64,000 bases of DNA from Candidatus Aminicenantes bacterium JdFR-78 (GTDB lineage: Bacteria; Acidobacteriota; Aminicenantia; JdFR-78), in assembly GCA_002010665.1 (NCBI GenBank), contig MTON01000022.1:59966-123965 (forward strand), written 5' to 3'. The notes beneath the pieces are model-generated. The model was not told where the DNA came from. It was given only the letters and a program-made list of their open reading frames with translations, and searched no databases. The position numbers and the translations under genes are program-made. Position 1 is the stretch's first letter. Every line of letters starts with the position of its first letter. This document shows, piece by piece, positions 19,735-52,019 of this stretch.

Positions 19735-19949
19735 TTTTTCCTACCTGTTTTGATTATAATATTTTAAAAATCTTTATTTGTCAACGAAAATCAAACTTTT
19801 TTGAAGAAGAAAAACAGTGAAATGTGGCAGGATATACGAATGATTGCATTTTTTTCAGATTATAAATGAATAGTATGGTTCCTGCCACATGAGAAATATA
19901 AATTAAAACTAAAGAATTTGCAAGATTTTTTCTTTTCATTTATTTTCTA

Positions 19950-19978
19950 TTGACAAATTAATTTTTTAATATTATAAT
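19950..19978 (+). promoter_or_regulatory. sigma-70 promoter with perfect TTGACA-N17-TATAAT upstream of the MarR-family gene
   Basis: TTGACA at 19950-19955, 17-nt spacer, TATAAT at 19973-19978, about 30 nt before the ATG at 20009. Confidence 0.55.
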
Positions 19979-20008: not shown

Positions 20009-20629
20009 ATGATGAGTAAAGAAAAGATTAAGAGAGATTTGGATGAAAAAATCGCCTTTAGCTTAGAGAGAATTTCACAGATTTTTAAAATTCTAATATG
20101 GGAGAAAGCAAAGAAAATTAATTTAAGTCCAATACAGATTCAATTTCTCCTCTATTTAAATAATCATGAATCTCTTCAATGTACAGTAACTAACTTGGCT
20201 CGGGAGTTTGCACTCACTCGAGCAACAGTCAGCGATGCTGTAAAATCTTTAATTAATAAGGGTTTGGTCTTAAAGAAAAGGTCAGCAAAGGATGGGCGCA
20301 TTTATACTCTAAAATTGAGCAAGAAAGGGGAAAAAGCTGTCAATGAATTAACAAACTGGTTGAATCCTGTTAAAGAACAACTTGGAAAATTTCCAGAAGA
20401 AGTAAAAGATAGAGTTTTATTTTTTTTGATGAAATTTATAGCTTCTTTCCAGAAAATCGGCGTTATAAACACCGCGAGAATGTGTATAGTATGCATTTAT
20501 TTTAAAGAGAATGCTTTTCCAGGAAGCGATAAGCCACATTACTGTCTTTTAACAAATCAACCCCTTGCTCTCTCTGATTTAAAAATTGATTGTGAAAACA
20601 ATAGACCAAAAATAATGGATAAAAAATAA
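20009..20629 (+). CDS. MarR-family transcriptional regulator with Cys-rich C-terminal extension
   Basis: 206 aa; winged-helix core (LSPIQIQFLLYLNNHE...LAREFALTRATVSDAVKSLINKGLVLKKRSAKDGRIYTLKLSKKG); C-terminal CIVCIY...HYCLL...DCEN cysteines. Confidence 0.7.
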   Translation: MMSKEKIKRDLDEKIAFSLERISQIFKILIWEKAKKINLSPIQIQFLLYLNNHESLQCTVTNLAREFALTRATVSDAVKSLINKGLVLKKRSAKDGRIYTLKLSKKGEKAVNELTNWLNPVKEQLGKFPEEVKDRVLFFLMKFIASFQKIGVINTARMCIVCIYFKENAFPGSDKPHYCLLTNQPLALSDLKIDCENNRPKIMDKK

Positions 20630-20635
20630 ATAATA

Positions 20636-21856
20636 ATGGAGGAAAAAATGAACAAGTTATTCACAAAGAAGGAAGCTTTAAAGGAGTTAATCAAAAGACT
20701 CCATAAAGGAGAAGACCCAAGAAAGATTAAACAGGAATTTAAAGAACTTTTAAAACAGACCGCACCTAATGAAATTGCAAAAGTTGAAGAAGAACTAATA
20801 AAGGAAGGGATGCCAAAAGAAGAAATTCACAAACTCTGTGATGTGCATTTAGCTCTTTTTCAAGAGTCTCTGGGCCAAGAAGAACATATTGCGCCAGAGG
20901 GACACCCTATACATATTCTTATGGAAGAACATAAAATGTTACTTAAATTTTCAGATGAATTGAAAAAAATAATTAATGAGATGAGAGCTTTTAAGGATTT
21001 AAACTCTGCTGGTGAAAAAAGAGAACACTTAATCCATATCATTGAACACTTAAAAAGTTCCGAGAGCCATTATGAAAGAGAGGAAAATGTTCTCTTCCCA
21101 TATCTTGAGAAACATGGAGTCACTCAACCTCCTGCAATTATGTGGATGGAACATAATAAAATAAGAGAAATCAAGAAAGGAATTTACAAGCTTGTTGATG
21201 AATACAAAAAGTTAGTATTCGAAGATTTTGTAAAGAGGTTAGAGGAAAGCGCAATGTCTCTTGCTGAAATATTTTCAAACCATTTTCTTAAAGAAAACAA
21301 AATTCTTTTCCCTACTGCTCTGAATGTAATAAAAGAGGATGAGTGGATAGAAATAAGAAAGGAATTTGATGAACTTGGTTATTGCTGTTTCACTCCTGAA
21401 GTGAAAACATGGGGTCCTGAAATAAAAGCCGGAGAAATTACATCAGAGGAGAAAGAAAATTTAATTAAGTTTGAAACAGGTTCCTTATCTCGTGAAGAAA
21501 TAGAGGGAATTTTTAATACCCTTCCAATTGACATTACCTTTGTGGATAAGGAAGATACAGTGCGATATTTCAGTCAATCTAAGGAAAGAATTTTCACAAG
21601 AACCAAAGCAGTAATAGGTCGAAAAGTTCAGCAATGTCATCCTCAAAAGAGTATTCATATAGTAAATCAGATACTTGAAGATTTCAAAAAAGGAAAAAGA
21701 GAAGTAGCAGAATTCTGGATAAATTTTCAGGGACGACTTATTTACATTCGCTATTTTCCTGTTCGAAATGAAAAAGGAGAATATCTTGGCTGTCTTGAAG
21801 TCACCCAGGATATCTCAGACATAAAAAAGATTGAAGGCGAAAAAAGATTACTTTAA
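20636..21856 (+). CDS. DUF438 / hemerythrin-like HHE cation-binding / PAS sensor protein
   Basis: 406 aa; N-terminal DUF438-like segment (EALKELIKRLHKGEDP...EIHKLCDVHLALF); hemerythrin-type His/Glu motifs (HILMEEHKML, HYEREENVLFPYLEKHG, MWMEHNKIREI); C-terminal PAS-like fold; begins 7 nt after the MarR gene. Confidence 0.75.
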   Translation: MEEKMNKLFTKKEALKELIKRLHKGEDPRKIKQEFKELLKQTAPNEIAKVEEELIKEGMPKEEIHKLCDVHLALFQESLGQEEHIAPEGHPIHILMEEHKMLLKFSDELKKIINEMRAFKDLNSAGEKREHLIHIIEHLKSSESHYEREENVLFPYLEKHGVTQPPAIMWMEHNKIREIKKGIYKLVDEYKKLVFEDFVKRLEESAMSLAEIFSNHFLKENKILFPTALNVIKEDEWIEIRKEFDELGYCCFTPEVKTWGPEIKAGEITSEEKENLIKFETGSLSREEIEGIFNTLPIDITFVDKEDTVRYFSQSKERIFTRTKAVIGRKVQQCHPQKSIHIVNQILEDFKKGKREVAEFWINFQGRLIYIRYFPVRNEKGEYLGCLEVTQDISDIKKIEGEKRLL

Positions 21857-22444
21857 AAAATTAAAATCAAAAGAACTACTTTTTTTAATCCAATAAATTC
21901 GCTTAATTATTATTGGAATAGCTAAAAATAAAGGTAAAAAACTTATCCATAGATTTTTTCCTGTAAGAAGCATAATTATAATATAAATACTTCCTCCAAA
22001 GAAAACAGCTAATTCCATTGCTATAAGAGAGTTTAGAATTAATCCTATAATTAGTGAAATAAGCAAATAAATGGGGTAAAACATAAATAGAATTCCAATA
22101 GAAGTAGCTAAACCAGTACCTCCTTTAAAACCTAAAAAAATTGACCAATTATGCCCACAAATACAAAGAATTGCTCCCAAAATAAAGAAAATATTATTTA
22201 CTTCATTTAATCCTAAATTTAATCCTATTGCACGAGCTAAAAGTACTATGGAGACTCCTTTAGCAAAATCCATTATTCCAACCAAAATTCCCCATTTCCA
22301 TCCAAGAATATCTCCTACATTTCCTGCTCCAGCATTTCCTGAGCCTAAAGTAAATATACTTTTTTTCATTTTCCAATAAACAATGAAAAAGGAAAATGAA
22401 ATAGAACCTATTAGATAAGATATAAATGGGAATAAATAAACCAT
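21848..22444 (-). CDS. plsY: glycerol-3-phosphate acyltransferase PlsY
   Basis: PlsY signature GSGNAGAGNVGDILGWKWG and YLIGSIS near the N-terminus. The track ORF extends to 22486 from a GTG; the family-consistent start is the internal ATG (MVYLFPFISYLIGSIS) at 22444. Confidence 0.8.
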   Translation of the reverse strand: MVYLFPFISYLIGSISFSFFIVYWKMKKSIFTLGSGNAGAGNVGDILGWKWGILVGIMDFAKGVSIVLLARAIGLNLGLNEVNNIFFILGAILCICGHNWSIFLGFKGGTGLATSIGILFMFYPIYLLISLIIGLILNSLIAMELAVFFGGSIYIIIMLLTGKNLWISFLPLFLAIPIIIKRIYWIKKSSSFDFNFLK

Positions 22445-22482
22445 TTTATTAAAAAAAGATTTCCGAGGCCGGGAGGACAAAT

Positions 22483-22629
22483 TCACTCTTTTTTAAAAGC
22501 TGACCAGAACCCCAAAATGCCAATAATTACCCCCACAATAATAAAGTGAATTGGGCTCATCCAAATCTTTGCAATTCCATTAATAATTAGCCACAATCCG
22601 AGAATACCAATTATTATGCCCTTCCACAT
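22483..22629 (-). CDS. small two-helix membrane protein (48 aa)
   Basis: Not in the ORF track. Strong SD AAAGAAAGGAGGTGAGAAAAT before the ATG at 22629. Translation: MWKGIIIGILGLWLIINGIAKIWMSPIHFIIVGVIIGILGFWSAFKKE. Stop TGA at 22483-22485. Confidence 0.5.
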   Translation of the reverse strand: MWKGIIIGILGLWLIINGIAKIWMSPIHFIIVGVIIGILGFWSAFKKE

Positions 22630-22706
22630 ATTTTCTCACCTCCTTTCTTTTAAAAATTAATTTAAGGATTTTCCTCTTTTTACTCCCGGCCTCCTTAGAA
22701 TTTAGA

Positions 22707-22721
22707 GCAAGAAATGTGCCA
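22707..22721 (-). promoter_or_regulatory. sigma-54 (-24/-12) promoter TGGCAC-atttc-TTGC
   Basis: Minus strand reads TGGCACATTTCTTGCT, with GG and GC 12 nt apart as in the consensus TGGCACG-N4-TTGC. The predicted start (about 22695) coincides with the inverted-repeat arm GGAGGCCGGGAG. Confidence 0.55.
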
Positions 22722-22826: not shown

Positions 22827-22845
22827 TGCTAATAAAATATTAGCA
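22827..22845. promoter_or_regulatory. 8-3-8 palindrome TGCTAATA-aaa-TATTAGCA plus an extra TTATTAG half-site; candidate enhancer-binding-protein site
   Basis: Perfect dyad about 110 bp upstream of the 22707-22721 sigma-54 promoter. A related half-site TTATTAG at 22813-22819 forms a second dyad with CTAATAA at 22829-22835. Confidence 0.35.
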
Positions 22846-22853
22846 GTTTAAAA

Positions 22854-24260
22854 TCAATTTTTATAATCTTCAGGAAAAATTTTGTTTCTTTTAAGAAGAG
22901 CTTGAAACTGCCTTCTATTCATTCCTATCTCTCGAGCTGCTCTTGATATATTTCCTTTATGTTTACTTAATAAGCTTATAGCAAATTTCCTTTCTACTTC
23001 TGAAGCTGCTCTTTGGCGTGCTATTTTTTTTGCTTTATTAAGTTCCTCTTTTGAGAAAGGAAATTTTACTTGTTCCTCAACAGCACTTAAAATTTCAGAT
23101 GGAATATCTCTTATAGTCAAGTTTCCATCAGGAGAAAGAATGAGCATACGCTTAATACAATTTTCAAGTTCGCGAACATTTCCTGGCCAATGATAGAGAG
23201 AAAAAACACTCAATATCTCTGGAGATACATTTATATTTGCATATCTCGTTAAACTTTTATATTTCTCAATGAAATGATTAACGAGTAAGGGAATATCTTC
23301 TAATCTTTCCCTTAATGGAGGAATTTTGATATTTAAAACGTTCAGTCTATAATACAAATCCATTCTAAAATTCCCTTTTTCTACCTCTTCTTTTAAATTT
23401 CGATTAGATGTGCATATTAATCTTATATTTAAATTTATAGGATTTACTCCTCCAATTCTCGTTATTTCATACTGCTCAATTGCTCTGAGAATCTTGGATT
23501 GAAGATTAAGAGGCATTTCAGCTATCTCATCTAAAAGGAGGGTGCCATTTTCAGCAATTTCGAATTTTCCTTTTTTAGTATAAATTGCTCCTGTAAAGGC
23601 GCCTCGTTCATGACCAAATAGTTCGCTTTCAAGCAGTTCTTTAGGAATGGCAGCACAATTAATAGCAACAAAAGGTCCATTAGCTCGAGGACTGTTTTTA
23701 TGAATGCCTCTTGCAATTAATTCTTTCCCTGTTCCACTTTCTCCCTCAATTAATACTGGCTCATTAGTTTGAGAAATTTGAGCACAAAGTCGAATAATTC
23801 TTTCCATCTCAGGGTTAGCAGTAATAATTTGTTCAAAACCATAATGTTTATCGAGTTCTTTTTTAAGCCTTATATTTTCCTTAATTAAGTTATGATAAGT
23901 CAAGCCTCTTTCAATTATTAATTCAACCTCTTTTATTTTAATTGGTTTTAGTAAATAATCATAAGCCCCTTTTTTCATTGCTTCCACAGCTGATTCAATT
24001 GTTCCATAAGCTGTCATAATAATTATTGGTATATTAGGATTAATTGCTTTTATTTCTTCTAATAAACTTATACCATTTATTCCTGGCAATCTTAAGTCAG
24101 TTAAAACAAGATCTATTTCAAAAGACTTTATAATATTTAGAGCTTCTTTACCATTTGTGGATATTATTATTTCATATCTATCCTTCAAATTAATTTCCAA
24201 AAGTTTACAAAGTTTAATTTCATCATCCACAATAAGAATTTTTTGTTTATTAGTGTTCAT
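22854..24260 (-). CDS. sigma-54-dependent response regulator (NtrC family)
   Basis: 468 aa; receiver domain (ILIVDDE...DLVLTDLRLPG); AAA+ sigma-54 activator core (GESGTGKE, GAFTGA, RELEN); C-terminal Fis-type HTH. Confidence 0.9.
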   Translation of the reverse strand: MNTNKQKILIVDDEIKLCKLLEINLKDRYEIIISTNGKEALNIIKSFEIDLVLTDLRLPGINGISLLEEIKAINPNIPIIIMTAYGTIESAVEAMKKGAYDYLLKPIKIKEVELIIERGLTYHNLIKENIRLKKELDKHYGFEQIITANPEMERIIRLCAQISQTNEPVLIEGESGTGKELIARGIHKNSPRANGPFVAINCAAIPKELLESELFGHERGAFTGAIYTKKGKFEIAENGTLLLDEIAEMPLNLQSKILRAIEQYEITRIGGVNPINLNIRLICTSNRNLKEEVEKGNFRMDLYYRLNVLNIKIPPLRERLEDIPLLVNHFIEKYKSLTRYANINVSPEILSVFSLYHWPGNVRELENCIKRMLILSPDGNLTIRDIPSEILSAVEEQVKFPFSKEELNKAKKIARQRAASEVERKFAISLLSKHKGNISRAAREIGMNRRQFQALLKRNKIFPEDYKN

Positions 24261-26373
24261 GTTTTATTGGAAGATAAATTCTAAATACAGTTCCTTTTCC
24301 TTCAATACTATCAAATGATAGCATGCCACCCAAGTTTTGTGCAATCCTACTTGCCACTGATAAACCCAAACCAGTTCCTTTTTCTTTAGTAGTAAAAAAC
24401 GGATTAAAAATTTTCTCTTTTATCTCGGGTGAGATTCCACATCCAGTATCCCTTATTTCAATAACTATCTTATTTTTTTCTGAAACACGCGAAACAATTT
24501 TCATCTCACCACCATCAGGCATTGCCTCAATAGCATTTAACATCAAATTAATTAAAAGTTGTTCTAATTGATGTTGATCTGAATTTATAGAAGAAATTTT
24601 AGGGTCGCAATCTACTACAATTTTAATTTTTTGCTTAGAAGCTCTATCATGTATGAGAGCAACACATTTATCAATTATATTTTTAATGTTACATAAAGAA
24701 AAATGTGGTTTAGAAGGTCTTGCAAAACTTAGGAAATTATTAATGAATTTATTCAATCTATTAACTTCCTCAAGAATGAATTTTGAAATTTCTTTTCTTG
24801 TTTTACTATTTATATGATTTTTTTGAAGTGTCTCGGCTGAAGCTGAAATAATGCCAAGTGGATTTCTTATTTCATGAGCTATTCCTGCTGAAAGTTCTCC
24901 TAAGGCAATTAGTTTTTGAGAACGAGCCATTATCCTTTCTGCTTCTTTTAATTCTTCAGCCATGACCGCTCTTGAAAGAGCAGCAGAAACATGCTTTGAA
25001 AATAAAAATAAAAGATCTAATTCTTTTTGACTCCAACCCTTCTTAGACAATTTATTACCTAATAGAATTATACCTTCAACTTGGTCTTTATGTAACAAAG
25101 GAAGAATTAAGGAAATCTCTTCCTTGAATAACAATTGAACGATTTGCGATTTTTCGTAAAAAGATTTTAAAAATTCTATTTCAATTGGCAACCTATATTT
25201 TTTGATAAAATTCATTATTTGATCCGAGTTTGAAATTTTAAACTCGGAATAAAAATTAAAAGAACTCACAATTTCATATTTTTTATTTTTTTTATTCAAA
25301 AGAAAAATAGCTACCTTTTTTACATTCAATTGTTTTTTTAGAAAGCTTACAATTTCTGTGGTAATCTCATTTAAGTTTATATTATCAACTAGAAATTCAT
25401 AAAATTCTTCTATTTTTCTTTTCAAACTGTATCTTCCTCTGTAAAAAATCCTATCCACTCCGTACTCCGTGGCTTTCACGAGAGGTCTAGAAAGGATTAC
25501 AATTAATATAATCAAAAGACTTTCTACAATAATTGAACCTTCATGGGTTTTCTTTCCTATCATCTCACCTAAATTCTTTATTAATAAGACATAGATAGCC
25601 ATAACTATTCCAGATAAAATAAAATATGATATTCCCCCTCTAATTATGAAGTAAATATCAAGAAGATGTAATCTTAAAACCGCGATAGCGAAGAAAAGAC
25701 TTATTAATATGGAATATGTACTAAAAAGATAAAGTAATGGAAGACCTAATTTAAGAAAATGATTTGTCAAATCTATTCCAAGTCCAAAAAGTACCATTAA
25801 GGTAATACCTGTAATGAGATATTTTATCTGGGTTTTCTCGCGTGCTGTATTGATTCGTTTTAATGAAGATATAAGATTGCTTATTCCGATTAAAGAAAAT
25901 ATTAAGATAAATGATGACAATGCAATATAAGAAATATAGAAAGATAAAGGTTGATCAGCTACTACATGATGATAATAATAAATATTTCCGAATTCTTTAA
26001 TTTTTTCGAGCCTTATCTCCATAGAGGAGAAAACAAAAGTTAAAAAGAGTGTTGGTAACAAGTAGAAAAGTACAACTCTTTTTTTACTGTTAAAAAAGTT
26101 CGAAATTTTTCTTGGAAATATTGCAGAAAAATGCAGAAAAAAAACTGAGCTGAAGAAAAAGCCAGCTAATCCAATTTTTGCTCCTATATCAGCAAGATAG
26201 TGTGTTTTACTATTGATCATTATAAAATCTCCAATATCCCATACAGCAAATGAAAAAATATAAAGAAATAAAAGGATATTCTCTGTTTTTTTAAAATTGT
26301 GTGATAGAACAATAAAAGCAATACTTAAATTTATGGTGAAAGCTATAATTGAAGGTATAGAATAATAATTCAT
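24250..26373 (-). CDS. sensor histidine kinase with multi-TM N-terminal sensor region
   Basis: 707 aa; about 8 predicted TM helices in the first 290 aa; HisKA (LSAGIAHEIRNPLG) and HATPase_c (NLMLNAIEAM...IEIRDTGCGI...GTGLGLSV) motifs; stop overlaps the response-regulator start. Confidence 0.85.
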   Translation of the reverse strand: MNYYSIPSIIAFTINLSIAFIVLSHNFKKTENILLFLYIFSFAVWDIGDFIMINSKTHYLADIGAKIGLAGFFFSSVFFLHFSAIFPRKISNFFNSKKRVVLFYLLPTLFLTFVFSSMEIRLEKIKEFGNIYYYHHVVADQPLSFYISYIALSSFILIFSLIGISNLISSLKRINTAREKTQIKYLITGITLMVLFGLGIDLTNHFLKLGLPLLYLFSTYSILISLFFAIAVLRLHLLDIYFIIRGGISYFILSGIVMAIYVLLIKNLGEMIGKKTHEGSIIVESLLIILIVILSRPLVKATEYGVDRIFYRGRYSLKRKIEEFYEFLVDNINLNEITTEIVSFLKKQLNVKKVAIFLLNKKNKKYEIVSSFNFYSEFKISNSDQIMNFIKKYRLPIEIEFLKSFYEKSQIVQLLFKEEISLILPLLHKDQVEGIILLGNKLSKKGWSQKELDLLFLFSKHVSAALSRAVMAEELKEAERIMARSQKLIALGELSAGIAHEIRNPLGIISASAETLQKNHINSKTRKEISKFILEEVNRLNKFINNFLSFARPSKPHFSLCNIKNIIDKCVALIHDRASKQKIKIVVDCDPKISSINSDQHQLEQLLINLMLNAIEAMPDGGEMKIVSRVSEKNKIVIEIRDTGCGISPEIKEKIFNPFFTTKEKGTGLGLSVASRIAQNLGGMLSFDSIEGKGTVFRIYLPIKHEH

Positions 26374-26708: not shown

Positions 26709-26724
26709 TGGCATAAATTTTGCA
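26709..26724 (+). promoter_or_regulatory. sigma-54 (-24/-12) promoter TGGCAT-aaatt-TTGCA
   Basis: GG at 26710-26711 and GC at 26722-26723 (12-nt offset); predicted start about 26735 at AGGAGG, 11 nt before the ATG of the DUF4382-like gene. Confidence 0.55.
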
Positions 26725-33798: not shown

Positions 33799-35358
33799 TT
33801 ACTCTCTTCCCTTTATAAGATTTTCCCTGTATTCCTTCAGTCCGAGAATCGGCAGATAGATATATATTGCTTTCTGTTCATGAAATTGACAGAATATTTC
33901 ACAGGCCAAACATTCAGTGCACCGACCTTTCCTCACCTCCTCTGCATCCATTGATAGAACTGGTTTTCCGTCATCTAATTTCAGAACACCATAAATACAT
34001 TCTTCAACACATCCTTTAGTTTTACACTTTCCGCATCTCTCATGCTCAATAAATACTTTCCCAGTCAATGTTTCAAATGAATATGCATTTTCAGGTTCTT
34101 TAAATTCTTCAATTGGATTAATCTTGTGAATGACTCTTTCTCCCTCCTCAACCAATTTTCTTAACCGTTCAGCACAAAAATCAGGAGAATCATCCCTTCC
34201 ATATCCTTCAACTTTCCCTGGAATATTTTTTAAATAAGTATTTAAGATCTCGATTGCTTTTTCCTCGTAATTTCCTCCGAGTCTGATTACTGCAGGAATT
34301 GAGAGCTTTTCCTCTATAAAAGCTTTAACAAACCCGCGTGCAGAGTGGAACTGTTCCTGAGAAGCAACCCCTGAACCAGATGCAAAATAACCAATTATAT
34401 TTGGTTGAGAGAGAATTATTTTTGCTGCTCGATAGACTTTGGAGGCTGGTGGATTTCCGCTAGTATCACAATAATTTGCTAATCTGAAACCTTTATTTAA
34501 AACAGCATCCATTGACATCATTGAACCTCCACCTCCTGCCCCATGAAAGCCTATATAATTACCTTCTGGGTCAGGGCTTTCAGTCATTTGAAAGAAATAA
34601 AACGTCCCTCTGTAATCCTTTTCTTCCACTTGATACGCAATTTTTTCAAGTTCAGTTGCAGGACGATCAAATTCTCTTGCTATTTCGATACCAAGTTCTG
34701 GATGACGGAATACTGCATAATCATCTACGACCAAATGACAATCTGCTGCAAATATCTCGCCATCTGAAGTTAAAACTAAAGGATTAACTTCAATAGAGCG
34801 TGCATCATATTCAACTGCTAATTCATAGAGCTTCACTAAAAAGCTCGAAAGTTTTAATAATAGTTTTCCCTTTATCCCTGTTTTTCTTATTAGATTTCTT
34901 GCCTCATATGTTTTAAATCCCTTTAATAAATTGATATAATGCTTGGAAATTCTGGAAGGATGTTCTCTGGCAATTTCTTCGATTCCACTTCCACCTACTG
35001 AGCTAAAAATTACCAAAGGGGATTTCCTAGAATCATCAATAACCAGACCAGCGAAGAACTCTCTTTCAATATCGAGCTTCTCCTCCACTAGAATCTTCTC
35101 AACTTTAAAATTTTTAACCTCCATCCCAAATAGTTCTTTGGACAATTCTCGAGCTTCTTCTGGCTTTTCAGCAAATTTAATTCCTCCTAAGGTTGCCCTA
35201 CCTGTTGTCCATACCTGAATTTTTAACACAACAGGTTTAGCTATCTCTTTTGCAATCTGATAAACTTCATCAGGACTTGATGCAACTCTTCCGTGAGGAA
35301 CTTTAATTCCCTTACTTCTCAGTAATTCCTTACTCTGGTATTCATATAGCCTTGCCAC
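33799..35358 (-). CDS. ccsA: succinyl-CoA-synthetase beta-like ATP-grasp subunit fused to C-terminal 2x Cys4 ferredoxin-like domain; candidate citryl-CoA synthetase large subunit
   Basis: 519 aa; N-terminal roughly 400 aa SucC-like (MARLYEYQSKELLRSKGIKVPHG...EVNPLVLTSDGEIFAADCHLVVDDYAVFRHPEL...GAGGGGSMMSMDAV); C-terminal roughly 100 aa with CGKCKTKGCVEEC and CTECLACEIFC cysteine clusters. Confidence 0.7.
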   Translation of the reverse strand: MARLYEYQSKELLRSKGIKVPHGRVASSPDEVYQIAKEIAKPVVLKIQVWTTGRATLGGIKFAEKPEEARELSKELFGMEVKNFKVEKILVEEKLDIEREFFAGLVIDDSRKSPLVIFSSVGGSGIEEIAREHPSRISKHYINLLKGFKTYEARNLIRKTGIKGKLLLKLSSFLVKLYELAVEYDARSIEVNPLVLTSDGEIFAADCHLVVDDYAVFRHPELGIEIAREFDRPATELEKIAYQVEEKDYRGTFYFFQMTESPDPEGNYIGFHGAGGGGSMMSMDAVLNKGFRLANYCDTSGNPPASKVYRAAKIILSQPNIIGYFASGSGVASQEQFHSARGFVKAFIEEKLSIPAVIRLGGNYEEKAIEILNTYLKNIPGKVEGYGRDDSPDFCAERLRKLVEEGERVIHKINPIEEFKEPENAYSFETLTGKVFIEHERCGKCKTKGCVEECIYGVLKLDDGKPVLSMDAEEVRKGRCTECLACEIFCQFHEQKAIYIYLPILGLKEYRENLIKGRE

Positions 35359-35501: not shown

Positions 35502-35552
35502 GGGCAGGCCCTCTTCCTACCTTTATTCCCTCTCCAGATCCAGGGCCTGCCC
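35502..35552 (-). terminator. GC-rich 11-bp inverted repeat (GGGCAGGCCCT / AGGGCCTGCCC); candidate terminator or structured RNA element
   Basis: Only strongly GC-rich palindromic element in this AT-rich interval; 12 nt downstream of the last gene of the ECF operon and upstream of the ccsA-like gene; 30-nt spacer between arms. Confidence 0.35.
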
Positions 35553-35563
35553 GATTTTTAAAA

Positions 35564-35944
35564 CTATTCAACCCAAATTTTCACTGTTTCATTTTCTTCA
35601 TTTATTTCAATCAAACAGAGAGGACCTAATTTTTTTAATTCATAAAAAAACTTCTTTAATTCTATCTTACAATTATCCTCCATTCGAAACTTAGCTTCAG
35701 GACAGGAATTCACAATCAATTCCATGAGTGAAATTGGAATAGTGATTCTAACCTTCGGCTTCTGAGTTCTGGTATCAACTACTAAAATTTTGAACCATTT
35801 TACTTCTTCTCTCTTTATTTTCTCCTTTCCAATAGCCTTTTTAATAATCTTGTAATCTTCCTTTGAAGGGGAATTTAAAACCGAGGACAAACTAACACTA
35901 TAAACAAGACCAAGAATTAAAATAAAAAGAGATAATTTTTTCAT
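35564..35944 (-). CDS. secreted protein carrying the shared ~65-aa IW(I/V/L)E C-terminal domain
   Basis: 126 aa; signal peptide; C-terminus KVRITIPISLMELIVNS...LGPLCLIEINEENETVKIWVE aligns to the C-termini of the 35941-36795 and 38166-38588 products. Confidence 0.5.
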   Translation of the reverse strand: MKKLSLFILILGLVYSVSLSSVLNSPSKEDYKIIKKAIGKEKIKREEVKWFKILVVDTRTQKPKVRITIPISLMELIVNSCPEAKFRMEDNCKIELKKFFYELKKLGPLCLIEINEENETVKIWVE

Positions 35945-40955: not shown

Positions 40956-41098
40956 TTGGTTATATATTTAAAAACTGAGTCTTTCCCAATTCCGTTGCAT
41001 TCCTCAAAGAAAAAATCCTTAGAATAAAATTATAAAATACACTACTACCTTTAACAAATGTTTTTTTCATTTTCAATTAGTAGCGAGGAAGGCGTTCA

Positions 41099-41115
41099 GT
41101 CAAATTATCGCAGAC
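41099..41115. repeat. 3' arm of perfect 17-bp inverted repeat GTCAAATTATCGCAGAC flanking the RRM gene
   Basis: Exact reverse complement of 41447-41463; lies 14 nt past the stop codon of the minus-strand RRM gene. Confidence 0.8.
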
Positions 41116-41129
41116 CTTCTATTAACTAT

Positions 41130-41390
41130 TCAGAATCTTTTGAATTTTCTCTTATCTTTTCTCTGGGGTCTTGCCTTATCTACTATAATTTTTCTTCCGT
41201 CGAGTTCGTATCCATTTAAACCACTTATCGCTTCTTGTGCTGATTCACTAGTTTTCATTTCAACAAAACCAAATCCTCTTCCTTCAATAATCTTAACTGA
41301 GCTTACTTCGCCAAACTTTTCGAATACTTCTCTTAATTGTTCTTCCCTTGTCCGGTAATTTAAGTTACCCACATAAAGCTTGTTTGTCAT
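41130..41390 (-). CDS. RRM-type RNA-binding protein
   Basis: 86 aa; RNP2 LYVGNL and RNP1 RGFGFVEM motifs; basic C-tail; strong SD AAGGAGGA. Confidence 0.85.
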   Translation of the reverse strand: MTNKLYVGNLNYRTREEQLREVFEKFGEVSSVKIIEGRGFGFVEMKTSESAQEAISGLNGYELDGRKIIVDKARPQRKDKRKFKRF

Positions 41391-41446
41391 TACGGAATCC
41401 TCCTTATCAAATTATCGAACGCCTTACCCCTCGAATCCCTCGGAGA

Positions 41447-41463
41447 GTCTGCGATAATTTGAC
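41447..41463. repeat. 5' arm of the 17-bp inverted repeat (GTCTGCGATAATTTGAC on plus strand) at the predicted transcription start of the RRM gene
   Basis: Preceded on the minus strand by TTGCAA-N17-AATAAT (41498-41470), placing the start at the first base of the arm; a second copy of the core (CAAATTATCG plus GAACGCC, 41408-41424) lies between arm and SD. Confidence 0.75.
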
Positions 41464-41624
41464 AACCCTATTATTCCATAAAAGATACTTTTTTGCAAAT
41501 AAAATATTTTTCAGACTATGAATTACGAAGTTATTGGCTGAGTTATAATTTTTAATTTGATAAATTCTATAAAAATGTTATATTAAATCTCGTCTATTTT
41601 TAGATAGATTGGGAGAAAGTCAAA

Positions 41625-52003: not shown

Positions 52004-52019
52004 TGGCATGATTTTTGCT
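52004..52019 (+). promoter_or_regulatory. sigma-54 (-24/-12) promoter TGGCAT-gattt-TTGCT
   Basis: GG at 52005-52006 and GC at 52017-52018 (12-nt offset); predicted start about 52030 at AAGGAGG, 16 nt before the ATG at 52046. Confidence 0.5.

What the first reader, a model, noticed from the sequence alone, without database searches (positions are those of the whole stretch)
22465..22694. Sigma-54-driven micro-transcript encoding a 48-aa membrane protein, bracketed by a 12-bp GC-rich inverted repeat
Seen in sequence: GAGGCCGGGAGG at 22465-22476 and its reverse complement CCTCCCGGCCTC at 22683-22694, about 83% G+C in a roughly 30% G+C genome. They flank the unannotated small ORF at 22483-22629 (strong AGGAGGTGA SD). 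The 5' arm coincides with the predicted sigma-54 transcription start. The 3' arm lies 7 nt after the stop codon, just before plsY. The about 230-nt mRNA can therefore close on itself end-to-end (5' GGAGGCCGGGAG with 3' CUCCCGGCCUC), a transcript-circularising or terminator-like arrangement. The same geometry recurs at the RRM gene (41099/41447).
Basis: seen in the sequence. Interest (0 to 1): 0.55.

Follow-up and report, generated by a model that had tools for sequence, protein, structure and literature searches.

The report
Conserved end-to-end helix closing a small mRNA
A short sigma-54-driven messenger RNA for a 48-residue membrane protein in an uncultured Aminicenantes bacterium has its first bases paired to a stretch just after its stop codon, and this GC-rich clamp is kept across six diverged relatives, so it is a real new example of a rare but known way of folding a bacterial mRNA shut.

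Summary
The inverted repeat is real, but it is 11 bp perfect, not 12: GAGGCCGGGAG at 22465-22475 and CTCCCGGCCTC at 22683-22693. About 0.025 such repeats are expected per window.

The locus reads on the minus strand in this order:
- histidine kinase and NtrC-type activator;
- a conserved palindrome;
- a perfect sigma-54 promoter;
- the 5' arm, starting 13 nt after the -12 GC;
- a strong Shine-Dalgarno site;
- a 48-aa two-helix ORF, a single SPW repeat;
- the 3' arm, 7 nt after the stop codon;
- plsY.

Six lineages (ORF identity down to 55%) keep the promoter and both arms, with similar spacing to the -12 GC. The arms are 95% and 88% identical, against 35-41% in the flanking non-coding DNA. The central pair is C-G, U-G or U-A. 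RNAalifold recovers the helix unprompted, and its pair probability is 0.86-0.99 in every lineage.

The T-run after the 3' arm is not conserved, and closure does not hide the SD. A stability or end-protecting clamp therefore fits better than a terminator or a hok-like translational lock.

The RRM gene shows the same geometry with a 17-bp helix. Covariation rests on one pair, and no transcript ends are mapped. I file it as a new member of the known class of bacterial 5'/3'-UTR interactions.

The parts
24250..26373 (-). Sensor histidine kinase (multi-pass membrane N-terminus, GAF, HisKA, HATPase_c), first gene of the module
   Evidence: Pfam hits. The same gene order is found in L006-L011, L017 and L023.
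22854..24260 (-). NtrC-type sigma-54 activator (receiver, AAA+ sigma-54 interaction domain, Fis-type HTH)
   Evidence: Sigma54_activat E = 1.7e-68, Response_reg, HTH_8. It is adjacent to the small ORF in the window, L017, L023 and L026.
22827..22845 (.). Conserved palindrome TGCTAA-N7-TTAGCA. Probably the activator binding site (UAS), and possibly also the terminator hairpin of the activator gene.
   Evidence: present in all six lineages, 116-159 bp upstream of the -24 GG. It is also present in L025, where the activator gene is not adjacent. Its function is inferred.
22707..22721 (-). Sigma-54 promoter TGGCAC-N5-TTGC (-24/-12)
   Evidence: the only perfect match in the window. GGCA[CT]-N5-TTGC is conserved in six lineages.
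22683..22693 (-). 5' arm of the closing helix (RNA 5'-GAGGCCGGGAG-3'). It starts 13 nt after the -12 GC, at about +1 to +3 of the transcript.
   Evidence: Pairwise identity among lineages is 95%, against 40% and 41% in the non-coding sequence either side of it.
22636..22644 (-). Shine-Dalgarno sequence AGGAGGTGA, 6 nt before the ATG
   Evidence: The GGAGGTG core is invariant in all lineages. Its predicted accessibility is essentially unchanged by closure in five of six lineages and falls in L027.
22483..22629 (-). 48-aa ORF, two predicted transmembrane helices, a single SPW-type repeat
   Evidence: Differences by codon position are 194/127/379.
22465..22475 (-). 3' arm of the closing helix (RNA 5'-CUCCCGGCCUC-3'), 7 nt after the stop codon
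   Evidence: The core CTCCC[GA]GCCT is present in every lineage, including L001-3 and L016. Pairwise identity is 88%, against 35% and 36% in the non-coding sequence either side of it.
22451..22457 (-). T7 run starting 7 nt after the 3' arm. It is not conserved in the other lineages.
   Evidence: No terminator call.
21848..22444 (-). plsY (glycerol-3-phosphate acyltransferase). Its ATG lies 20 nt after the 3' arm, with no obvious SD.
   Evidence: G3P_acyltransf, E = 4.1e-30. It follows the small ORF in every lineage.
41099..41463 (-). Second instance of the geometry. The 86-aa RRM protein gene (41130-41390) is enclosed by a 17-bp perfect helix (41447-41463 as 5' arm, 41099-41115 as 3' arm). The 5' arm starts 6 nt after a TTGCAA-17-AATAAT promoter-like site.
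   Evidence: It gives the strongest flank-to-flank duplex of 62 proxy genes.

Best explanation
The two arms are the halves of an RNA helix of 11-13 bp (about -21 to -26 kcal/mol). The helix ties the first nucleotides of a sigma-54-dependent transcript to a site 7-18 nt after the stop codon of a 48-aa SPW-type membrane protein gene, folding the roughly 230-nt mRNA into a closed loop.

Transcription is most likely switched on by the adjacent histidine kinase and NtrC-type activator, acting through the conserved palindrome upstream (inferred).

The helix most likely works as a stability clamp (inferred). It would bury the 5' end, which 5'-end-dependent RNases and pyrophosphohydrolases need to be free. 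It would also give the RNA a 3' duplex that stops 3' exonucleases, in a genome where canonical terminator hairpins are scarce. It does not hide the ribosome binding site, so the closed RNA should remain translatable.

Shown here: existence, non-chance status, conservation, one strand-consistent compensatory series, and thermodynamic dominance. Inferred: the transcript start, the 3' end, and the effect on stability.
For: - The repeat is real and improbable by chance.
- The perfect sigma-54 promoter and the 11-13 nt from the -12 GC to the 5' arm hold in six lineages.
- Both arms are islands of 95% and 88% identity in non-coding sequence that is otherwise 35-41% identical.
- The central pair is C-G (window, L004), U-G (L025) or U-A (L017, L023, L027). 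The outer pair is G-C or G-U in five of six.
- The three G-U cells pair only on the sense strand.
- RNAalifold predicts this closing helix without being given it.
- Pair probability is 0.86-0.99 at 37 and 60 C in all six lineages. The helix persists in a read-through RNA.
- SD accessibility is essentially unchanged by closure in five of six lineages; in L027 it falls from 0.54 to 0.33.
- There is no local hairpin or terminator at the 3' end. Canonical terminators are below shuffle expectation in 40 kb of the window.
- The small ORF and the RRM gene give the two strongest flank-to-flank duplexes among 62 proxy genes.
- Precedents exist: the hbs 14-bp 5'/3'-UTR pairing that limits RNase Y cleavage (PMC5737220) and the hok tac/fbi stem that stabilises the closed mRNA (PMC9841398).
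Against: - Covariation rests on one variable pair in six sequences. The shuffle control is not significant (98/500), and nine of eleven pairs never vary.
- The whole-transcript folding energy is unremarkable (z = -1.15).
- No transcript ends are mapped. The +1 position is inferred from the promoter.
- In the L001-L003 lineage the ORF, SD and 3' arm are kept, but neither the promoter nor a 5' arm is visible in the 84-104 nt available upstream.
- In the window lineage plsY starts 20 nt after the 3' arm, so the RNA may continue into plsY. The helix would then be internal at its 3' side.
- A terminating ribosome would cover a 3' arm that sits only 7-10 nt after the stop codon.
Confidence: 0.55

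Rival explanations
1. Long-range terminator or insulator. When the 3' arm emerges it pairs with the 5' arm, and together with the downstream U-rich stretch this stops or pauses RNA polymerase before plsY. Sigma-54 bursts would then yield a monocistronic small RNA and would not over-express plsY.
For: - In the window a T7 run starts 7 nt after the stem.
- L004, L016 and L017 have UUU directly after the stem.
- No other hairpin is available at this 3' end.
- The 3' arm always lies between the small ORF and plsY.
Against: - The 'loop' is 202-211 nt, far outside known intrinsic terminators.
- The U-tract is neither adjacent to the stem nor conserved: L023 and L027 have none.
- In L017, L023 and L027 plsY is a further 115-170 nt away, so proximity to plsY is not the conserved feature.
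- The RRM gene's 3' arm has no U-run after it.
Confidence: 0.15
2. Type I toxin mRNA of the hok or aapA kind. The 48-aa hydrophobic peptide is a membrane toxin. The 5'/3' fold-back keeps the full-length mRNA inert and stable until 3' processing activates it, and an unseen antisense RNA is the antitoxin.
For: The geometry is the same as hok tac/fbi: the extreme 5' end pairs with the 3' end of an mRNA for a peptide of about 50 aa (PMC9841398). The ORF is hydrophobic and has a very strong SD.
Against: - The protein is a single SPW repeat with widespread two-repeat relatives of about 100 aa. It has no toxin or defence family hit.
- It sits in conserved synteny, as a single copy in the window, under a sigma-54 promoter with a conserved upstream palindrome, next to a two-component system in most lineages. 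The patchy, mobile distribution typical of type I systems is not seen.
- The predicted SD accessibility does not depend consistently on closure.
- No antisense promoter is conserved across lineages.
Confidence: 0.1
3. DNA-level inverted repeat. The arms would be two sites for a DNA-binding protein, or the ends of an invertible or mobile segment, and not an RNA helix.
For: Nine of eleven positions are invariant, as expected for a protein recognition site. The matched change in both arms could also come from co-evolution of two sites for the same protein.
Against: - In L025 the arms differ. The difference is a U-G pair on the sense RNA but a mismatch between the DNA sites. L004 and L017 have terminal G-U pairs.
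- Every contig read has the same orientation.
- No recombinase or transposase gene lies nearby.
- There is only one copy in the window, and no target-site duplication is visible in the flanking sequence.
- The 5' arm tracks the transcription start to within 2 nt.
Confidence: 0.05
4. No function. A chance repeat kept by recent common ancestry.
For: Only six lineages are available, and several of them are close relatives.
Against: The surrounding non-coding sequence has decayed to 35-41% identity while the arms stay at 88-95%. Chance expectation is 0.025 per window.
Confidence: 0.03

Closest known systems
[quoted passage not shown]
   Same: The extreme 5' nucleotides of a short mRNA for a membrane peptide of about 50 aa pair with a 3'-terminal element, closing and stabilising the full-length RNA (PMC9841398).
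   Different: - There is no Hok homology, no mok-like leader frame identified and no conserved antisense promoter.
- The SD is not sequestered in the closed form.
- The promoter is sigma-54 dependent with a conserved upstream palindrome, and the gene sits in conserved synteny, usually beside a two-component system.
B. subtilis hbs mRNA 5'/3'-UTR interaction
   Same: [quoted passage not shown] The helix length is similar, and both have a very strong SD.
   Different: In hbs the pairing overlaps an internal RNase Y site in a long structured leader, not the very first nucleotides. The organism, RNase set and promoter type all differ. Nothing is measured here.
S. aureus icaR mRNA 3'UTR-5'UTR pairing (UCCCC anti-SD motif)
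   Same: A C-rich 3'UTR motif (here CUCCC) pairs with a G-rich 5'UTR segment of the same mRNA (review PMC7821165).
   Different: In icaR the partner is the ribosome binding site itself, which blocks translation and creates an RNase III substrate. Here the partner is a separate GGAG-containing segment about 40 nt upstream of the real SD, and the SD stays free.
5'-terminal stem-loops that stabilise bacterial mRNAs (for example the ompA leader); own knowledge
   Same: Base pairing of the first nucleotides protects against 5'-end-dependent decay.
   Different: Those are local hairpins. Here the partner strand lies about 205 nt away, beyond the stop codon.

Membership tests
Bacterial intramolecular 5'UTR-3'UTR interaction (hbs / icaR / RNAIII class) | Complementary segments in the 5' and 3' untranslated regions of one mRNA that dominate the predicted fold | tested here: met
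   11 bp perfect. It is the MFE and centroid structure. Pair probability is 0.86-0.99 in six lineages.
Bacterial intramolecular 5'UTR-3'UTR interaction (hbs / icaR / RNAIII class) | Evolutionary support for pairing (conservation plus compensatory change) | tested here: inconclusive
   The arms are conserved islands. One pair shows C-G / U-G / U-A. With six sequences and one variable pair, the shuffle control is not significant (98/500).
Bacterial intramolecular 5'UTR-3'UTR interaction (hbs / icaR / RNAIII class) | Both arms lie on the same transcript (mapped ends), and pairing has a measured effect | not testable with these tools
   This needs RACE or Term-seq, structure probing and mutagenesis.
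hok/Sok-type type I toxin-antitoxin | Toxin belongs to a known type I toxin family | tested here: not met
   There is no Pfam, NCBIfam or PADLOC toxin hit. The relatives are SPW-repeat proteins.
hok/Sok-type type I toxin-antitoxin | Antisense RNA antitoxin with its own promoter | tested here: inconclusive
   No antisense promoter-like site is shared by more than 3 of 6 lineages, and the shared one lies in conserved codons. A consensus scan cannot exclude one.
hok/Sok-type type I toxin-antitoxin | Closed full-length form sequesters the ribosome binding site | tested here: not met
   Predicted unpaired probability of GGAGG with versus without the 3' arm: 0.54/0.51, 0.51/0.57, 0.11/0.12, 0.42/0.44, 0.65/0.73, 0.33/0.54. 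This is prediction only.
Intrinsic (Rho-independent) terminator | Short-loop G+C-rich hairpin immediately followed by a U-tract | tested here: not met
   No call. The loop is 202-211 nt. The U-run is 7 nt away in the window and is not conserved.
Sigma-54-dependent promoter with enhancer-binding protein | GG at -24 and GC at -12 with consensus spacing (TGGCAC-N5-TTGC) | tested here: met
   It is the only perfect match in the window and is conserved in six lineages.
Sigma-54-dependent promoter with enhancer-binding protein | Cognate AAA+ activator and upstream activating sequence | tested here: inconclusive
   The activator gene is adjacent. A conserved palindrome lies 116-159 bp upstream. Binding was not tested, and no rpoN gene was looked for.
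SPW repeat proteins (PF03779) | Significant match to the Pfam model | tested here: inconclusive
   The ORF itself has no hit at E <= 1. Profile searches from it recover proteins that do carry PF03779, including two-repeat forms of about 100 aa.
Invertible DNA segment / MITE | Both orientations or multiple copies, a recombinase nearby, target-site duplication | tested here: not met
   There is a single copy, one orientation in all contigs, no recombinase among the neighbours and no flanking direct repeat.

The most novel reading that the evidence does not exclude
In this AT-rich Aminicenantes lineage, closing a short monocistronic mRNA by pairing its first nucleotides to a site just after the stop codon could be a general design. 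It would replace the canonical terminator hairpin as 3'-end protection and at the same time shield the 5' end. It might also place the stop codon next to the ribosome binding site, favouring re-initiation (a bacterial 'closed loop').

What supports this reading:
- Two unrelated genes in one 64-kb window show it: the sigma-54 SPW gene and a sigma-70-type RRM gene. In both, the 5' arm sits at the predicted +1.
- Both lack any local 3' hairpin.
- Canonical terminators are under-represented in the window.
Probability: 0.2. Interest if true: 0.65.

Novelty: new member of a known kind. Interest (0 to 1): 0.45.

Why it matters
Only a handful of bacterial mRNAs are known to pair their own 5' and 3' untranslated regions: hok, aapA, hbs, icaR and RNAIII. 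A 2021 review states that it is open whether this mechanism applies to other genes (PMC7821165).

This locus adds a comparatively well-supported case from an uncultured phylum. It is found in six lineages and has a G-U intermediate in a compensatory series. It is linked to a sigma-54 and two-component module, and a second case lies in the same window.

If the helix does control mRNA lifetime, it would show how a burst-type sigma-54 promoter can be coupled to a long-lived message for a small membrane protein. It would also give a simple sequence signature (promoter-proximal arm plus stop-proximal arm) for finding more such mRNAs in metagenomes. In itself it is an incremental finding, not a new principle.

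Tried and rejected
- **Rfam:** a scan of the whole window at gathering thresholds found nothing.
- **Dispersed repeat or MITE:** rejected, because there is a single copy, conserved synteny and no target duplication.
- **Canonical terminator at the 3' arm:** none found.
- **Public collection searches:** Genome contigs and metagenome contigs were searched with the protein profile and with a degenerate KIWMSPIHF pattern.
- **Direct family assignment of the 48-aa protein:** nothing significant in Pfam, NCBIfam or PADLOC. The SPW link came only through profile searches.
- **Conserved antisense promoter (type I antitoxin):** none shared by more than 3 of 6 lineages.
- **SD gating by the helix:** not supported in five of six lineages.
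- **Distant SPW mini-proteins:** P0019 (L029) has a sigma-54-like promoter but no arms. P0026 (L030-34) has no two-component neighbour. The module is therefore confined to one Aminicenantes clade.
- **Other sigma-54 promoters in the window:** 26709 and 52004 have short leaders without a 5' arm, so the arm is not a generic sigma-54 feature.
- **Source paper for the single-cell genomes:** not found.

Full report
**Observation.** On the + strand, GAGGCCGGGAG occupies 22465-22475 and its exact reverse complement CTCCCGGCCTC occupies 22683-22693. With two mismatches the complementarity runs to 17 nt. The window is 32.2% G+C and the arms are 82%. In 200 first-order Markov shuffles of the window, perfect 11-mer inverted repeats of at least 70% G+C within 20-800 nt occurred 0.025 times on average. 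The window has two, this one and a hairpin at 35502-35552. The motif has no further copies beyond chance, so it is not a dispersed element.

**Anatomy (all on the minus strand).**
- A histidine kinase (24250-26373) and an NtrC-type sigma-54 activator (22854-24260) come first.
- A palindrome TGCTAA-N7-TTAGCA lies at 22827-22845.
- The only perfect TGGCAC-N5-TTGC match in the window is at 22707-22721.
- The 5' arm starts 13 nt after the -12 GC, which is about +1 to +3.
- After a 38-nt AT-rich spacer comes AGGAGGTGA, then the ATG at 22629.
- The 48-aa ORF ends at 22483.
- Seven nucleotides later comes the 3' arm, followed after a 7-nt gap by a T7 run.
- The plsY ATG is at 22444.
- From the inferred start to the end of the 3' arm is about 231 nt.

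**The ORF is a real gene.**
- The same or related 48-49-aa proteins are called in many assemblies.
- Across six lineages, nucleotide differences fall 194/127/379 on codon positions 1/2/3.
- Profile searches reach proteins carrying the SPW repeat domain PF03779, mostly two-repeat proteins of about 100 aa.
- The ORF is therefore a single SPW repeat with two transmembrane helices. On its own it scores nothing significant in Pfam, NCBIfam or PADLOC.
- The organism is an uncultured Candidatus Aminicenantes bacterium, known from single-cell genomes such as AC-708-M15.

**Comparative evidence.** I used the small protein and plsY as anchors and recovered loci at decreasing identity.

| Locus | ORF identity to window | What is available |
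|---|---|---|
| L004/L005 | 81% | Both arms |
| L025 | 71% | Both arms |
| L017-19 | 74% | Both arms |
| L023 | 55% | Both arms |
| L026-28 | 52% | Both arms (L027 used) |
| L016 | 88% | Contig starts inside the leader, so only the 3' arm is visible |
| L001-3 | 91% | 3' arm only (see the counter-example below) |

Six lineages have sequence on both sides (alignment A4). All six share these features:
- They keep GGCA[CT]-N5-TTGC, with 11-13 nt from the -12 GC to the 5' arm and 202-211 nt between the arms.
- Pairwise identity is 95% for the 5' arm and 88% for the 3' arm. It is 40% in the spacer before the 5' arm, 41% between arm and SD, 35% between stop codon and 3' arm, and 36% after the 3' arm.
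- The central pair is C-G in the window and L004, U-G in L025, and U-A in L017, L023 and L027. The outermost pair is G-C (3), G-U (2) or G-A (1).
- The U-G and G-U cells pair only in the sense RNA, which argues for an RNA-level constraint on this strand.
- RNAalifold, given only the alignment, returns exactly this helix as the closing stem.
- In each lineage the eleven pairs have a mean ensemble probability of 0.86-0.99 at 37 and 60 C. The arm duplexes are worth -21 to -26.5 kcal/mol.
- The helix also forms in a 447-nt read-through RNA.

The limits are plain. Nine pairs never vary, only one covaries, and the shuffle control is not significant (98/500). The whole-RNA energy is not unusual (z = -1.15).

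**What the helix is not.**
- *Not a canonical terminator.* None is called. The U-run is 7 nt from the stem in the window and is absent or different elsewhere. In L017, L023 and L027 plsY is about 115-170 nt further on. Canonical terminator-like sites are below shuffle expectation over 40 kb of the window (5 and 4 found, against 9.4 and 9.9 expected). This genome seems not to depend on them.
- *Not a translational lock.* The predicted accessibility of GGAGG is essentially the same with and without the 3' arm in five of six lineages; in L027 it falls from 0.54 to 0.33.
- *Not a mobile or invertible segment.* There is one copy and one orientation everywhere, with no recombinase among the neighbours and no target duplication.
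- *Probably not a type I toxin.* A conserved antisense promoter was not found. Together with SPW homology, fixed synteny and sigma-54 control, this makes a hok-like system unlikely, although the geometry is that of hok tac/fbi (PMC9841398).

**Most likely mechanism.**
- The kinase-activator pair, acting through the conserved palindrome, fires the sigma-54 promoter. The palindrome lies 116-159 bp upstream and is kept even in L025, where the activator gene is not adjacent.
- The 5' arm stays free until the 3' arm is made, then the RNA snaps shut.
- A paired 5' terminus is a poor substrate for 5'-end-dependent decay, and a 3' duplex blocks 3' exonucleases (established knowledge for bacterial mRNA decay).
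- The hbs mRNA gives a measured precedent for a 14-bp 5'/3'-UTR pairing that limits RNase action (PMC5737220).
- The SD stays open, so the closed RNA can be translated.
- A terminating ribosome would transiently melt a 3' arm that sits only 7-10 nt after the stop codon. This could couple decay to translation, but that is speculation.
- The steps from 'helix exists and is selected' to 'it stabilises the RNA' are inference.

**A counter-example to keep in view.** L001-L003 (three samples) keep the ORF, the SD and a perfect 3' arm. However, the 84-104 nt upstream show neither the promoter nor a 5' arm and match nothing else held here. The contigs from two assemblies end within 20 nt of each other, and L003 begins with a Nextera adapter. 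Either the 5' partner lies further upstream, or this close relative has lost it recently and the 3' arm has not yet decayed.

**Second instance.**
- The 86-aa RRM gene (41130-41390, minus strand) is enclosed by a 17-bp perfect repeat at 41099-41115 and 41447-41463. This closes the RNA in the MFE and centroid folds.
- Its 5' arm begins 6 nt after a TTGCAA-17-AATAAT site with an extended -10, again at the predicted +1.
- No local terminator follows the gene.
- In a scan of upstream-versus-downstream flank duplexes for 62 proxy genes, the RRM gene (-37.3 kcal/mol) and the small ORF (-29.0) rank first and second.
- I could not fetch RRM orthologues, so that helix has no comparative support yet.

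**Comparison and verdict.** It works like the known bacterial 5'/3'-UTR interactions: hok tac/fbi, hbs and icaR (review PMC7821165). It is not a member of the hok family or of the terminator class. It is best described as a new, comparatively well-supported member of that small class, in a new phylum and under sigma-54 control. The 'terminator-like' reading is not. Interest is moderate. It would rise if closed mRNAs proved to be a genome-wide habit in this lineage.

Noticed in passing
window 41075-41500 (minus strand): The RRM-protein mRNA has a 17-bp end-to-end helix. Its 5'UTR also contains a second copy of CGATAATTTGA, which can pair locally with the 5' arm. A further 9-bp match (AAGGCGTTC / GAACGCCTT) links the 5'UTR and 3'UTR. 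These are mutually exclusive structures, so this could be a switch, for example temperature-dependent.
   Followed up: partly
window 22827-22845; L004, L017, L023, L025, L027: The palindrome TGCTAA-N7-TTAGCA has invariant arms and lies 116-159 bp upstream of the sigma-54 -24 element in all six lineages. It is followed by T-rich sequence. It is a candidate activator binding site, and possibly also the terminator of the activator gene.
   Followed up: partly
L001 1-84, L002 1-104, L003 1-86: This close relative (91% ORF identity) keeps the 3' arm, but its upstream sequence is unrelated, with no promoter or 5' arm. Contigs from two assemblies break within 20 nt of each other. L003 starts with a Nextera adapter (TCGTCGGCAGCGTCAGATGTGTATAAGAGACAG).
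   Followed up: partly
window 35502-35552: A second GC-rich 11-bp perfect inverted repeat (GGGCAGGCCCT / AGGGCCTGCCC) has a 29-nt loop. It lies between two minus-strand genes (35564-35944 and 33799-35358). It is not called as a terminator.
   Followed up: no
window 26709-26723 (+) and 52004-52018 (+): There are two more near-consensus sigma-54 promoters (TGGCATAAATTTTGC and TGGCATGATTTTTGC), each just upstream of an SD and of a gene for a protein with a signal-peptide-like N-terminus. The first is divergent from the histidine kinase gene (a DUF4382 protein in L006). Neither has a 5' arm.
   Followed up: partly
window 10000-49999: Canonical hairpin-plus-U terminator-like sites are fewer than in shuffled sequence (9 found, about 19 expected). 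This suggests the organism relies little on classical intrinsic terminators.
   Followed up: partly
window 22444-22486: plsY has no recognisable SD, and its ATG (22444) lies 20 nt after the 3' arm. The longest ORF (GTG at 22486) would overlap the small ORF, and public annotations use three different starts (198, 173 and 212 aa). How plsY is transcribed and translated here is unclear.
   Followed up: no
window 19822-19890 and 19950-19978: An 11-bp inverted repeat ATGTGGCAGGA / TCCTGCCACAT (48-nt gap) lies just upstream of a perfect TTGACA-17-TATAAT promoter. That promoter precedes the MarR-family gene at 20009. The repeat is possibly its operator.
   Followed up: no
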